Assembly: GCA_011911785.1 (NCBI GenBank)
Contig: GCA_011911785.1_4084.1
Strand: one strand, 5' to 3'
DNA: 64,000 bases
Source of the DNA: a phage
In this document: one piece after another, positions 10,176-57,476 of the stretch
How the letters are laid out: every line of letters starts with the position of its first letter
Position numbering within the stretch: position 1 is the first letter of the stretch
The notes under the pieces: model-generated
What the model saw: only the letters and a program-made list of their open reading frames with translations
Told to the model about the DNA's origin: nothing
Databases searched by the model: none
Translations under genes and position numbers: made by a program

Positions 10176-10204
10176 TTGACATATAAATGTGCCCATTGTA
10201 TAAT
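10176..10204 (+). promoter_or_regulatory. sigma70-like promoter with hairpin-embedded -10
   Basis: TTGACA, 17 nt, TATAAT; inverted repeat ATGTGCCCATT / AATGGGCACAT flanks the -10, followed by T-rich tract. Confidence 0.6.
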
Positions 10205-32474: not shown

Positions 32475-33412
<938 letters not shown>

Positions 33413-33429
33413 CTGTAGTATTCAGTACT

Positions 33430-33621
<192 letters not shown>

Positions 33622-33622
33622 A

Positions 33623-33680
<58 letters not shown>

Positions 33681-33685
33681 CAATC

Positions 33686-33841
<156 letters not shown>

Positions 33842-33870
33842 CAAAAACGAAATTACAATAGGAAATTAAA

Positions 33871-34056
33871 ATGCAACTTTTAATTCTTTCAATATTGTAT
33901 ATTATTATAATGGTTCCGATATCAATACGTTTAATTACAGTTGAACGATTTTTATCGAAACATGGAAATAGGTCTATGATCTTTGTACCAATCGGTCTGA
34001 TATTGTTTGGTATATTTGCATTTATAATGGGAATTAACGCTACATTCATTTCATAG
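33871..34056 (+). CDS. small membrane protein (61 aa)
   Basis: ORF with two hydrophobic segments downstream of tRNA-Asn. Confidence 0.45.
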   Translation: MQLLILSILYIIIMVPISIRLITVERFLSKHGNRSMIFVPIGLILFGIFAFIMGINATFIS

Positions 34057-34065
34057 GAAACAAAT

Positions 34066-34547
<482 letters not shown>

Positions 34548-34554
34548 AAGAACG

Positions 34555-34587
<33 letters not shown>

Positions 34588-34588
34588 C

Positions 34589-34644
<56 letters not shown>

Positions 34645-34645
34645 T

Positions 34646-34879
<234 letters not shown>

Positions 34880-34882
34880 TGT

Positions 34883-35227
<345 letters not shown>

Positions 35228-35228
35228 T

Positions 35229-35657
<429 letters not shown>

Positions 35658-35665
<8 letters not shown>

Positions 35666-36020
35666 TCTAATAGTACGTATAATGCAAGATGTTCGAAAGA
35701 ACCTTTATACAGGCAATTTTGACGATTCGAACATTAAACTATTATGTTATGATGGTTTTACCTTGGTACATCCATCTGAATCAAATAATATATACATATC
35801 ATATACTTCCAAAAATCAATTATATCAATTTGATATATATAGCACAATGGCTAAAATAACTTTGGACGTATCCAAGCAGCCTATTCTTATCGCTGTACCA
35901 GAATGCAATTACACTGAAGAATCACTGTTTCAGTACTCAATGATAAATGACATTGGCGACTTGACATTAGAAGAGATTAACGCTATACTAGATGTATCAC
36001 GTTTGATTAATGCCTACTAA
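35658..36020 (+). CDS. EEYFQ-motif family protein (family A)
   Basis: C-terminal YTEESLFQYSMINDIGDLTLEEINAIL. Confidence 0.6.
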
Positions 36021-36033
36021 TTTGGAGATTAAT

Positions 36034-36225
36034 ATGTTCTGGAATTTGTTATGTCTTTTTGGTCGTACCTTTGTTCTTGCAATTATTCATACACCAGGTA
36101 TTCGTAATTTTGTTTCTTATGAATTTAAGAAAAATTATCACAACAATACTGAAGTTCGTGCCACTAAAATGTGCAAAGACTTCAATGTAACAGTACCACC
36201 ATTTAAGAAGTACGAGGATGAATAA
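36034..36225 (+). CDS. small membrane protein (63 aa)
   Basis: Start refined to ATG 36034 (RBS tggagattaatATG); hydrophobic N-terminus. Confidence 0.5.
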   Translation: MFWNLLCLFGRTFVLAIIHTPGIRNFVSYEFKKNYHNNTEVRATKMCKDFNVTVPPFKKYEDE

Positions 36226-36503
36226 TGGAATTCATTGTAGCTCCTGAAGAACTCAAGACCTTTAAGTTCAAAGATAATTATACGTATTCAAATCATTCCT
36301 TGAATTCAATTCATGTAATTGCAATGGTTGCATCTGAATATAAAGATAACCCGTGTATTGATTTTAAAACCACTGATGGTGAATATACATGGGTGATCCC
36401 ACGAGATAAATATAGTTATCAAGGGGCAGTAGAAATTCGTGACTCGATTCTAAAACAAATCGAAGATGGACATACTCATCCTAAACTAAACATTCAGTAC
36501 TGA
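36225..36503 (+). CDS. hypothetical protein (92 aa)
   Basis: ATGA overlap. Confidence 0.55.
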   Translation: MEFIVAPEELKTFKFKDNYTYSNHSLNSIHVIAMVASEYKDNPCIDFKTTDGEYTWVIPRDKYSYQGAVEIRDSILKQIEDGHTHPKLNIQY

Positions 36504-36832
36504 AAATGTTATACCGATAGCTTCTGGAGCAGTACTGAATCCTCCTTTTTCTTTCAGAAGCTATCACATATTTTGTCGTAAAATGGTACTGTGAGTGGTT
36601 TGTCTTTCCATTCTCTCCAGGTCCAGTACCTATCATTGTAGTTCTGGAGAGATATAACATGTATAATGTTTTTTACCTCCTGTTTATCATTATATATGTC
36701 ACTAAACGAGTAATAACTACCCTCCCTCTAGGTTATTACTTTTGATTTTGGTATTGACTTTCAATGCCGCAAATGTTATACTTAAGGCTGATTCAAATTG
36801 AATCGGCCTTTTTTCTTTTTAAGGAGAACACC
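36504..36832 (+). ncRNA. ORF-free structured region (candidate leader or small RNA)
   Basis: About 330 bp with no tracked ORF; nested inverted repeats GATAGCTTCTG/CAGAAGCTATC (36516..36565) and TCTCTCCAG/CTGGAGAGA; two terminator-like hairpins with T-runs. Confidence 0.3.
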
Positions 36833-37228
36833 ATGAATTTGGTTGTAGAAGACGATATCTTTTCCGATGCTATTGAGTATATGTACAATCTTGTTAGACT
36901 TAATGAATTTGTACAACGTCATACATTGACACATAAGGATGGGATTATTACTGTTGGTGCATACATTAATGGATACTTAACCGAGTTTTACAATTGTGAT
37001 AACATTTTTATAACCATTGATAACATCACTACGACTAATGACATATCCATTGATTTATTCAAAGATCATATTGAAATTGATATAGACAAGATGATTGCCA
37101 TCGATATCGATCCTGTAATGTATGAGTTACAAGAAGAAATGTATGAGCAATTATGCTTTGTGTATGATTTGAGTAAAATTTCATTCTTTGACTTACGCAG
37201 AATCTGTTACGTAGTAGGTAAGTTATGA
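36833..37228 (+). CDS. EEYFQ-motif family protein (divergent)
   Basis: Start refined to ATG 36833 (RBS taaggagaacaccATG); C-terminal LQEEMYEQLCFVYDLSKISFFDLRRI. Confidence 0.5.
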   Translation: MNLVVEDDIFSDAIEYMYNLVRLNEFVQRHTLTHKDGIITVGAYINGYLTEFYNCDNIFITIDNITTTNDISIDLFKDHIEIDIDKMIAIDIDPVMYELQEEMYEQLCFVYDLSKISFFDLRRICYVVGKL

Positions 37229-37698
37229 CAAATATACGTGATGTATTAATGCAGTACGGTATCAGTGCTGAAATGCTTTCAGATGAAATTATTAAAAACT
37301 CTAAGATAGAATTTATGTTTAATAGACACCGTTATCCAGGTGTTTATATTAATCGATCCTGTTCATTAATTTACTTTGAATACATGGATGAATATGTTAT
37401 CATTGAAGAAATCAAACTCAATGGATGGCACTGTACAATTGAGTTAACGAAACCAAGAACCAAGAACAAAATAGTGATTAGTATTAATATCTATTACGAT
37501 ATTAGTACTGAAGATGGAGCCTCACACTTTGTTCGAGTTTTGTCATCTGATGATAATTTAAAGTTAGATTATAAATCAGAAGAAGAATACTTTCAGGAAA
37601 GTTTAATCAATGATTTAGTTTTTGATTATAACTTTTATAAAGAACTATCAAAAAACTTCGTTGAATGTATCAAACTATATGAGGAAGAGGACGAATGA
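37225..37698 (+). CDS. EEYFQ-motif family protein (family A)
   Basis: C-terminal KSEEEYFQESLINDLVFDYNFYKEL. Confidence 0.65.
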   Translation: MTNIRDVLMQYGISAEMLSDEIIKNSKIEFMFNRHRYPGVYINRSCSLIYFEYMDEYVIIEEIKLNGWHCTIELTKPRTKNKIVISINIYYDISTEDGASHFVRVLSSDDNLKLDYKSEEEYFQESLINDLVFDYNFYKELSKNFVECIKLYEEEDE

Positions 37699-57450: not shown

Positions 57451-57476
57451 AGGTTGACTAACGTCAGCCTTTTTTG
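57451..57476 (+). terminator. intrinsic terminator (composite module type)
   Basis: AGGTTGAC-TAAC-GTCAGCCT hairpin then TTTTT; TTGACT in 5' arm; weak -10-like TTATAC 17 nt downstream. Confidence 0.7.

What the first reader, a model, noticed from the sequence alone, without database searches (positions are those of the whole stretch)
36504..36832. About 330-bp noncoding region with nested inverted repeats and tandem terminator-like hairpins
Between two family A sub-arrays lies an ORF-free stretch with an 11-bp inverted repeat (36516..36565, loop contains CAGTACTGAA), a 9-bp inverted repeat (TCTCTCCAG/CTGGAGAGA) and two hairpin plus T-run elements, ending at the RBS of the next gene. This suggests a regulatory leader, attenuator or small RNA.
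Basis: seen in the sequence. Interest (0 to 1): 0.5.

Follow-up and report, generated by a model that had tools for sequence, protein, structure and literature searches.

The report
Phage early-operon boundary: hairpins, terminator, promoter
This gene-free stretch of a giant E. coli phage is where one early transcription unit ends and the next begins, a fairly ordinary regulatory cassette preceded by conserved RNA hairpins whose own role is unknown.

Summary
Region 36485-36835 holds four perfect inverted repeats of at least 9 bp, against 0.05 expected by chance, and the + strand folds far better than shuffles (z = -6.2).

The window matches Escherichia phage A4, an Asteriusvirus (121Q/PBECO4-type jumbo phage). 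The region is single-copy, syntenic and non-coding across about six lineages of the genus.

Its 3' end is a composite cassette:
- a sigma-70 promoter, TTGACT-17-TGTTATACT (36754-36782), whose -10 block is invariant;
- 2 nt later, an intrinsic terminator (36784-36820) that keeps its pairing through compensatory changes.

The expected start site (about 36788-36791) lies inside the terminator's 5' arm. I infer that upstream transcripts stop there, while promoter-initiated transcripts lack a complete hairpin and run into the next gene. This matches the logic of the PeSL promoter/stem-loop cassettes of T4-type phages, and canonical PeSL-like elements occur elsewhere in the window.

Upstream lies a structured 3' UTR: two interleaved 11-bp helices (pseudoknot topology) and hairpins HP2-HP4, three with CCUCC-type loops.

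The leader/attenuator reading is not supported. A 3'-UTR-derived small RNA cannot be excluded. No transcript data exist for this genus.

The parts
36492..36540 (+). Helix S1. Its arms (36492-36502 ATTCAGTACTG and 36530-36540 CAGTACTGAAT) are two copies of the palindrome CAGTACTG. The left arm overlaps the TGA stop (36501-36503) of the upstream gene.
   Evidence: repeat I3. 91.5% of cells are paired across 11 sequences. RNAalifold predicts it independently, with an A-U to G-C change at the extension pair. The motif is strongly over-represented across the window.
36516..36565 (+). Helix S2 (hairpin HP1). Arms 36516-36526 GATAGCTTCTG and 36555-36565 CAGAAGCTATC, interleaved with S1 in an H-type pseudoknot topology. 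The loop carries AUCCUCCUU (CCTCC at 36541-36545).
   Evidence: repeat I4. 100% of cells are paired. The window has G-C where the others have A-U, and UE-S1 and JNE01 have U.G wobbles. Hairpin energy is -18.5 kcal/mol.
36567..36655 (+). An 89-bp insertion specific to phage A4.
   Evidence: Absent from all ten other distinct sequences. No other copy exists in the phage collection or in the window. No significant similarity to HP1.
36657..36699 (+). Hairpin HP2: a 12-bp stem with one G.U and a 19-nt loop containing ACCUCCU (CCTCC at 36676-36680).
   Evidence: repeat I5. -10.2 kcal/mol. 92.9% of cells paired. JNE01 has a different, weaker stem that still presents CCCUCA in its loop. ph0011 lacks it.
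36707..36750 (+). Hairpin HP3 (arms 36709-36717 / 36732-36740) with loop UACCCUCCCUCUAG, followed by UUUUGAUUUU. In A4 it looks like a weak terminator.
   Evidence: repeat I12. Three pairs show changes on both sides. The window's stem sequence is entirely different from that of relatives, yet still forms a hairpin at the same place.
36750..36768 (+). Hairpin HP4 (GGTATTGA-CTT-TCAATGCC), which encloses the -35 hexamer.
   Evidence: Relatives have AGAAGTT...AACTTCT at the same position. Two pairs show changes on both sides.
36754..36782 (+). Sigma-70 promoter: -35 TTGACT (36754-36759), 17-nt spacer, extended -10 TGTTATACT (36774-36782). The inferred start site is about 36788-36791.
   Evidence: 10 of 12 matches, plus TG. 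The same promoter is found in G17 and JNE01. TGTTATACTTA is invariant in all lineages while the spacer varies.
36784..36820 (+). Intrinsic terminator HP5: a 12-pair stem (36784-36810) with a 3-nt loop, followed by the U-tract TTTTTTCTTTTT.
   Evidence: The only terminator-like site between 34000 and 39000. -15.8 kcal/mol. 99.2% of cells paired, with a compensatory U-A to A-U change in JNE01 and U.G to U-A in ph0011. Annotated as a terminator in the G17 and UE-S1 GenBank records.
36821..36835 (+). Shine-Dalgarno AAGGAG (36821-36826) and the ATG (36833) of the downstream gene (36833..37228, A4_157).

Best explanation
The stretch is the boundary between two early, host-RNA-polymerase transcription units of an Asteriusvirus jumbo phage.

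Upstream + strand promoters (for example 34824-34851 and 35961-35989) produce transcripts that run through the tRNA-Thr gene and the small genes ending at 36503. These transcripts then cross a conserved, hairpin-rich 3' UTR of about 280-330 nt and stop at the intrinsic terminator 36784-36820.

A sigma-70 promoter (36754-36782) sits immediately in front of that terminator. Its -10 ends 2 nt before the stem, so transcription should start at about 36788-36791, inside the 5' arm. Transcripts from this promoter would keep only a -4.7 kcal/mol remnant hairpin, separated from the U-tract. They would therefore escape termination and carry a roughly 43-nt leader into gene 36833..37228.

The logic is that of the PeSL promoter/stem-loop cassettes of T4-type phages. 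The upstream hairpins (S1/S2, HP2, HP3, HP4) most likely act in the RNA as 3'-end protection and partial terminators or insulators that keep incoming polymerases off the promoter.

Shown here: the sequence elements, their conservation, the compensatory changes and the strand. Inferred: the start-site position, the escape from termination and the role of the upstream hairpins.
For: - Promoter: 10 of 12 matches plus an extended -10 TG. It is found again in G17 and JNE01. The -10 block TGTTATACTTA is invariant in all lineages, while the spacer and flanks vary.
- Terminator: it is the only terminator-like site in 5 kb, at -15.8 kcal/mol. Pairing is kept in 99% of cells, with a compensatory change. 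It is annotated independently in the G17 and UE-S1 records.
- Escape from termination: truncating the RNA at 36789 or 36790 leaves -4.7 kcal/mol.
- Whole structure: 93.2% of cells are paired, against 30-50% when partners are slid. Six pairs carry changes on both sides, against 1.2 in shuffles, and 0 of 500 shuffles reached six.
- Strand: nearly all wobbles are G.U on the + strand, and the fold z-score is -6.2 for + against -3.3 for -.
- Conservation: the promoter/terminator core is about 100% identical. The downstream protein is only 33-44% identical between lineages.
- Context: the same window holds about 30 strong + strand sigma-70 promoters, several with stem-loops over the -35, the spacer or the -10 (8969, 10176, 46324, 57454, 61739). 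This is how PeSLs are described (PMC2839356, PMC4122927).
- Genus background: RpoD-like early promoters clustered among short hypothetical genes are reported for related jumbo phages (PMC5259590).
Against: - No transcript-end data exist for any Asteriusvirus, so the start site, and therefore the escape from termination, is inferred from standard promoter geometry.
- The promoter lacks the A-tract UP element that other promoters in the window have.
- The stem-loop lies downstream of the -10. Published PeSLs place it between the -35 and -10 or over the -10.
- The model does not explain why CCUCC-type loops recur, why S1 and S2 interleave, or why the -35 is enclosed in a covarying hairpin.
- ph0011 lacks half of S2 and all of HP2, so those parts are dispensable.
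Confidence: 0.65

Rival explanations
1. The conserved hairpins 36490-36745 are the body of a small RNA, most likely derived from the 3' UTR. Its CCUCC-type loops (anti-Shine-Dalgarno sequences) would pair with ribosome-binding sites of host or phage mRNAs. The S1/S2 pseudoknot would stabilise the RNA or direct its processing.
For: - CCTCC occurs three times in the region, against 0.07 expected. All three copies sit in hairpin loops, and this is the densest 330-nt window for CCTC in the 64 kb.
- C-rich loops persist in JNE01 and the window even where the stems differ.
- The structure is on the + strand and covaries.
- The best Rfam match, far below threshold, is to a C-rich-loop sRNA, suhB/mmgR.
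Against: - No promoter lies upstream of the hairpins on either strand.
- The Rfam score is 17.4 bits against a gathering score of 41.
- UE-S1 has lost the motif in two loops, and ph0011 lacks most of the element.
- The loops show no covariation with the downstream gene's ribosome-binding site, which differs between lineages.
- There is no expression evidence.
Confidence: 0.15
2. The two CAGTACTG palindromes (36495 and 36530) are DNA sites for a dimeric protein rather than RNA helix arms. They would be operators of a phage or host regulator that also acts at the many early promoters carrying the motif.
For: - CAGTACTG is the most over-represented 8-mer in the window: 38 sites against about 4.6 expected. 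The 12-mer with up to 2 mismatches gives 48 matches against 5.2.
- The motif sits directly 5' of the -10, or fused to the -35, in several promoters.
- It occurs in all three reading frames inside genes.
- Both arms being palindromic is unnecessary for an RNA stem.
- In JNE01 the right copy changed on both flanks and remained a palindrome.
Against: - BF17-type phages carry CGGTACTG in the right copy. That breaks the palindrome but keeps a U.G pair on the + strand.
- No binding protein is identified.
- This reading covers only S1, not the rest of the region, and it is compatible with the main explanation.
Confidence: 0.2
3. The whole stretch would be a 5' leader or transcription attenuator (or riboswitch) that controls the downstream gene through alternative hairpins.
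For: Tandem hairpins with T-runs lie directly upstream of a ribosome-binding site. S1 and S2 compete in nested folds.
Against: - The only credible promoter lies 3' of all hairpins but the last, and it overlaps that last hairpin.
- The terminator hairpin forms in every minimum-free-energy fold, with no competing antiterminator.
- No leader or riboswitch family matches.
- In JNE01 and in the window the flanking genes differ or have diverged while the element stays the same.
Confidence: 0.06
4. The functional strand is the minus strand. An antisense RNA would present GGAGG/GGA motifs in hairpin loops, as a CsrA-type or ribosome decoy, or a small minus-strand gene would be encoded.
For: - The + strand is unusually rich in T and C here, so the - strand is purine-rich.
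- The - strand loops read AAGGAGGA, CAGGAGGU and GAGGGAGGG.
- A 59-aa ORF on the - strand exists in A4.
Against: - No promoter on the - strand.
- The ORF is not conserved and its frame is broken in relatives.
- The wobble pairs are G.U on the + strand, which would be C.A mismatches on the - strand.
- The - strand fold is weaker.
- All neighbouring genes are on the + strand.
Confidence: 0.03

Closest known systems
PeSL (promoter-early stem-loop) composite promoter/terminator cassettes of T4-type phages (Arbiol et al. 2010, PMC2839356; Comeau et al. 2014, PMC4122927)
   Same: - A strong sigma-70-type early promoter is fused to a terminator-capable stem-loop.
- A Shine-Dalgarno sequence and start codon lie at the 3' end.
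- The cassette sits among small genes of unknown function in a variable region.
- Upstream transcripts are stopped while the cassette's own transcripts start past the 5' arm.
- Gene presence or absence differs next to the cassette (JNE01 lacks the 92-aa upstream gene).
   Different: - The stem-loop lies just downstream of the -10, over the start site, rather than between the -35 and -10 or over the -10.
- A second, covarying hairpin encloses the -35.
- The cassette sequence is single-copy per genome.
- The phage belongs to Asteriusvirus, not the T4 subfamily.
- Recombination at this cassette is not demonstrated.
Canonical intrinsic (Rho-independent) terminator
   Same: A 10-12 bp stem with five G-C pairs, a 3-nt loop and an immediately adjacent U-tract, on the transcribed strand after a gene block.
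   Different: A promoter's -10 element ends 2 nt before the stem, so the same hairpin is predicted to be truncated in transcripts from that promoter.
Small RNAs with C-rich anti-Shine-Dalgarno loops (Rfam RF00519 suhB/mmgR; similar classes recalled from memory, such as staphylococcal RNAIII/RsaE-type C-rich loops)
   Same: Several hairpins present CCUCC or UCCC-type loops, followed by a terminator.
   Different: The element has no promoter of its own. The Rfam score is far below threshold (17.4 against 41 bits). The motif is partly lost in UE-S1 and ph0011. No target is identified.
H-type RNA pseudoknots (for example the T4 gene 32 leader pseudoknot, recalled from memory)
   Same: Two helices with interleaved arms. 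The connecting loops of 13, 3 and 14 nt are long enough for both helices to form together.
   Different: The stems are unusually long, at 11 bp each. The element lies in a 3' UTR just after a stop codon. One helix is built from a palindrome that is over-represented across the genome. Whether both helices form at once is untested.

Membership tests
PeSL composite promoter/stem-loop cassette | Near-consensus sigma-70 early promoter | tested here: met
   TTGACT-17-TATACT with an extended -10 TG. The same promoter is found in G17 and JNE01. The -10 block is invariant.
PeSL composite promoter/stem-loop cassette | Stable stem-loop, able to terminate, physically joined to the promoter | tested here: met
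   Hairpin 36784-36810 at -15.8 kcal/mol with a U-tract, starting 2 nt after the -10.
PeSL composite promoter/stem-loop cassette | Stem-loop placed between the -35 and -10, or over the -10 (the commonest published positions) | tested here: not met
   Here the terminator hairpin lies downstream of the -10 and a separate hairpin covers the -35. Canonical placements do occur elsewhere in the window, at 10176, 57454 and 61739.
PeSL composite promoter/stem-loop cassette | Shine-Dalgarno sequence and start codon of the downstream gene at the 3' end | tested here: met
   AAGGAG at 36821-36826 and ATG at 36833.
PeSL composite promoter/stem-loop cassette | AT-rich UP-like region upstream of the -35 | tested here: inconclusive
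   The sequence upstream is T-rich (CTTTTGATTTTGGTA), not the A-tract seen at other promoters in the window.
PeSL composite promoter/stem-loop cassette | Repeated, similar copies that flank ORFans and mediate indels by recombination | tested here: inconclusive
   The class is abundant in the window, but this cassette's sequence is single-copy. JNE01 lacks the upstream 92-aa gene, with homology resuming at the left palindrome. Recombination itself was not shown.
PeSL composite promoter/stem-loop cassette | Promoter and terminator activity demonstrated in vivo | not testable with these tools
   This needs reporter fusions or transcript-end mapping. No Asteriusvirus transcript data were found.
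Intrinsic terminator | G+C-containing stem, short loop and adjacent U-tract on the transcribed strand | tested here: met
   Twelve pairs, five of them G-C, a 3-nt loop and TTTTTTCTTTTT.
Intrinsic terminator | Pairing maintained in evolution | tested here: met
   99.2% of cells paired, with U-A to A-U in JNE01 and U.G to U-A in ph0011.
5' leader, attenuator or riboswitch | Promoter upstream of the structured region, so that the structures lie in the gene's own leader | tested here: not met
   No promoter-like site on either strand between 36504 and 36750. The only one is at 36754-36782.
5' leader, attenuator or riboswitch | Alternative antiterminator structure that competes with the terminator | tested here: not met
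   The terminator hairpin is present intact in the minimum-free-energy fold of all 11 sequences.
5' leader, attenuator or riboswitch | Match to a curated leader or riboswitch model | tested here: not met
   No match near any gathering score.
Trans-acting sRNA with anti-SD loops (e.g. RF00519) | C-rich (CCUCC-type) motifs exposed in hairpin loops | tested here: met
   Three CCTCC motifs, all in loops, against 0.07 expected.
Trans-acting sRNA with anti-SD loops (e.g. RF00519) | Match to the family covariance model | tested here: not met
   17.4 bits against a gathering score of 41.
Trans-acting sRNA with anti-SD loops (e.g. RF00519) | Own promoter, or a defined processing site, giving a discrete stable RNA | not testable with these tools
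   No promoter is predicted upstream. Processing needs a Northern blot or RNA-seq.
H-type pseudoknot | Two helices with interleaved arms, both conserved | tested here: met
   Repeats I3 and I4 interleave. S1 has 91.5% and S2 100% of cells paired.
H-type pseudoknot | Both helices form at the same time | not testable with these tools
   The folding tools exclude pseudoknots, and nested folds pick S1 in some lineages and S2 in others. This needs SHAPE or DMS probing.

The most novel reading that the evidence does not exclude
The conserved + strand segment 36490-36745 could be a phage regulatory RNA released from the 3' end of an early operon. It would consist of a long-stem pseudoknot built on the genome-wide CAGTACTG palindrome, followed by hairpins that display anti-Shine-Dalgarno (CCUCC) loops. 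These loops would sequester ribosome-binding sites of host or phage mRNAs during early infection.
Probability: 0.12. Interest if true: 0.6.

Novelty: new member of a known kind. Interest (0 to 1): 0.3.

Why it matters
If the model holds, it gives a concrete, testable map of how an Asteriusvirus jumbo phage partitions its early gene arrays into separate transcription units. It does so with one hairpin that terminates incoming transcripts and is bypassed by the promoter placed in front of it. That would extend the PeSL concept beyond T4-type phages.

It also flags three conserved features with no explanation yet:
- interleaved 11-bp helices just after a stop codon;
- recurrent CCUCC loops;
- an 8-bp palindrome at about eight times its expected frequency.

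All three would be worth including when the first transcript-end maps of these phages are made. As it stands, the finding is a well-supported but fairly ordinary regulatory boundary.

Tried and rejected
- **Hidden gene.** All ORFs of at least 15 aa on both strands were compared across 11 sequences. None is conserved, and indels shift the frames.
- **Known RNA family.** Rfam at gathering thresholds and with permissive E-values gave nothing near threshold.
- **More homologues for covariation.**
  - The IMG/VR pattern scan returned one contig the length of the 121Q genome.
  - The metagenome scan returned 35 loci, of which only L019 (G17-type) is real and the rest are chance matches.
  - Diversity is therefore limited to about six lineages.
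- **Paralogous copies.** HP1 and the promoter/terminator core are single-copy per genome.
- **Origin of the A4-only insertion.** There is no BLAST match anywhere, no second copy in the window, and local alignment to HP1 is no better than shuffles (17 against a null 95th percentile of 19).
- **Stop-codon readthrough or frameshifting stimulated by S2.**
  - The read-through frame stops after 5 codons in G17.
  - JNE01 has no gene ending there.
- **Cis masking of the downstream ribosome-binding site by CCUCC loops.** That site differs between lineages (AAGGAG, AGGTG, GGGGAT, GAGGAT) with no matching loop changes. The upstream gene's site is invariant, so it offers no test.
- **Rho-dependent rut site.** C exceeds G only modestly.
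- **Published transcript data.** None were found for Asteriusvirus. A raw search for the motif returned only unrelated papers among those listed.

Full report
**Identity and context**

Window 36200-37300 is 100% identical to Escherichia phage A4 (ON286972.1). A4 is an Asteriusvirus, a 121Q/PBECO4-type jumbo myovirus of about 355 kb.

The finding is the intergenic gap between A4_156 (36225..36503, +) and A4_157 (36833..37228, +). It lies in a + strand block of tRNA genes and small genes. Those genes match only PHROGs of unknown function and have no Pfam domain.

**The observation**

Region 36485-36835 holds four perfect inverted repeats of at least 9 bp with loops of 40 nt or less. Dinucleotide shuffles give a mean of 0.054, and none of 2000 shuffles reached four.

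As RNA, the + strand folds at -96.6 kcal/mol (z = -6.2). The - strand folds at -82.3 kcal/mol (z = -3.3).

**Comparative evidence**

- The region is single-copy and syntenic in all 36 Asteriusvirus records hit.
- Fifteen loci gave 11 distinct sequences from about six lineages.
- Wider scans added only a contig the length of the 121Q genome and one G17-like metagenome contig. The other 34 metagenome hits are chance matches.
- No ORF on either strand is conserved.
- No Rfam family matches.
It has no other copy anywhere and no significant similarity to the neighbouring hairpin.

For the six helices I defined, 93.2% of alignment cells form standard pairs. Sliding the 3' partners gives 30-50%. Six pairs carry changes on both sides, against 1.2 in shuffles, and 0 of 500 shuffles reached six. 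Three of these are in HP3, two in HP4 and one in the terminator.

RNAalifold independently recovered S1, HP3, HP4 and the terminator. In the window, the HP3 and HP4 stems have different sequences from those of relatives but still form hairpins at the same places.

The wobble pairs are almost all G.U on the + strand and would be C.A mismatches on the - strand. The structured molecule is therefore + strand RNA.

**The 3' cassette**

A sigma-70 promoter, TTGACT-17-TGTTATACT, lies at 36754-36782. G17 and JNE01 carry it with an 18-nt spacer. TGTTATACTTA is invariant in every lineage while the spacer varies.

Two nucleotides after the -10 begins the only terminator-like site between 34000 and 39000. 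It has 12 pairs, five of them G-C, a 3-nt loop and the tract TTTTTTCTTTTT. Its energy is -15.8 kcal/mol. The G17 and UE-S1 GenBank records also annotate it as a terminator.

This core is about 100% identical between lineages. The protein encoded just downstream is only 33-44% identical.

**Mechanism (inferred)**

With standard promoter geometry (established knowledge), transcription starts about 6-9 nt after the -10, at 36788-36791. That is inside the 5' arm of the terminator.

RNAs starting at 36789 or 36790 keep only a -4.7 kcal/mol hairpin, separated from the U-tract by GGCC. They should therefore read into the gene.

Transcripts arriving from upstream promoters (34824-34851, a 12 of 12 match; 35961-35989, 11 of 12) form the full hairpin and should stop.

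The same geometry rules out promoter-proximal attenuation. A start at or before 36784 would lie only 2 nt after the -10.

**Comparison with known systems**

This is the logic of the PeSL cassettes of T4-type phages. PeSLs combine strong sigma-70 promoters with stem-loops that are effective terminators. They lie among ORFans and end with a ribosome-binding site and a start codon. The stem-loop is most often between the -35 and -10, or over the -10 (PMC2839356, PMC4122927).

The window itself holds about 30 strong + strand promoters. Several have stem-loops in exactly those positions (8969, 10176, 46324, 57454, 61739). RpoD-like promoters concentrated among short hypothetical genes were also reported for a related jumbo phage (PMC5259590).

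The cassette here differs in three ways: the terminator lies after the -10, a second hairpin encloses the -35, and the cassette is unique in sequence.

**The upstream hairpins**

S1 (36492-36502 / 36530-36540) and S2 (36516-36526 / 36555-36565) interleave with connecting loops of 13, 3 and 14 nt. This is an H-type pseudoknot topology.

Nested folding picks S1 in some lineages and S2 in others. Both are conserved: S1 has 91.5% and S2 100% of cells paired. S2 shows a G-C to A-U change. S1 shows an A-U to G-C change at its extension pair.

Three loops carry CCTCC, against 0.07 expected. This is the densest 330-nt window for CCTC in the 64 kb.

I could not link these loops to the neighbouring ribosome-binding sites. 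Readthrough, Rho loading and a minus-strand function also lack support. ph0011 lacks half of S2 and all of HP2, so these parts are not essential.

My working view is that they are 3'-UTR stabilisers and partial terminators. A 3'-UTR-derived anti-Shine-Dalgarno RNA remains possible at about 10-15%.

**S1 and the palindrome**

Both S1 arms are copies of CAGTACTG. This is the most over-represented 8-mer in the window: 38 sites against about 4.6 expected.

The motif occurs in all three reading frames inside genes. It also lies directly next to the -10 or the -35 of several promoters. S1 may therefore be a pair of protein-binding sites on DNA rather than an RNA helix, or both at once. The data do not decide.

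**Verdict**

The leader/attenuator interpretation is not supported. The most likely function is a transcription-unit boundary of a known kind, preceded by conserved RNA structures of unknown role. No transcript-end data exist for this genus, so the start site and the termination behaviour remain inferences.

Noticed in passing
window, whole 64 kb (e.g. 32490, 32899, 33423, 34574, 34695, 36495, 36530, 46328, 51474): The 8-bp palindrome CAGTACTG is the most over-represented 8-mer in the window, with 38 sites against about 4.6 expected. It occurs in all three reading frames inside genes. It also lies directly 5' of the -10, or fused to the -35, in several sigma-70 promoters, including tRNA promoters. 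Its function is unknown; it could be an operator for a dimeric protein or an RNA processing stem.
   Followed up: partly
window 34555-34830: An intergenic stretch inside the tRNA cluster is about 95% identical across Asteriusvirus lineages, far better conserved than the neighbouring genes. Two copies of the 16-bp palindrome TATTCAGTACTGAAT(A), at 34570 and 34691, are predicted to pair into a long closing helix. Two compensatory pairs are present and there is no Rfam match. It is a candidate for one or two conserved stable non-coding RNAs.
   Followed up: partly
window 8969, 10176, 46324, 57454, 61739: Strong sigma-70 promoters carry a stem-loop over the -35, the spacer or the -10. Examples are TTGACTaacgTCAGCCttttttgtTATACT at 57454 and a hairpin with the -10 in its loop at 10176. 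These are canonical PeSL-like promoter/terminator cassettes in a jumbo phage outside the T4 subfamily.
   Followed up: partly
L008 (phage JNE01) 1985-2010 compared with window 36225-36503: JNE01 and Turkey5 lack the 92-aa gene A4_156. Homology to the other phages resumes within a few bases of the left CAGTACTG palindrome. This gene presence/absence breakpoint lies at the edge of the element.
   Followed up: no
window 35083-35100: Another C-rich tract, GACCTCCCCTCCATATCA, lies in the intergenic gap just upstream of tRNA-Thr. It is the only other cluster of CCTCC-type motifs found in a + strand intergenic region near the finding.
   Followed up: no
window 33400-36000 compared with ON286972.1: The feature coordinates of the A4 record, shifted by the offset that holds at 36200-37300, do not line up with the window's tRNA genes and ORFs upstream of about 36000. 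tRNA-Thr is off by 15 nt, and the tRNA-Ser/Met/Asn spacing differs. Either the window differs from A4 by indels there, or the record's annotation is offset.
   Followed up: no
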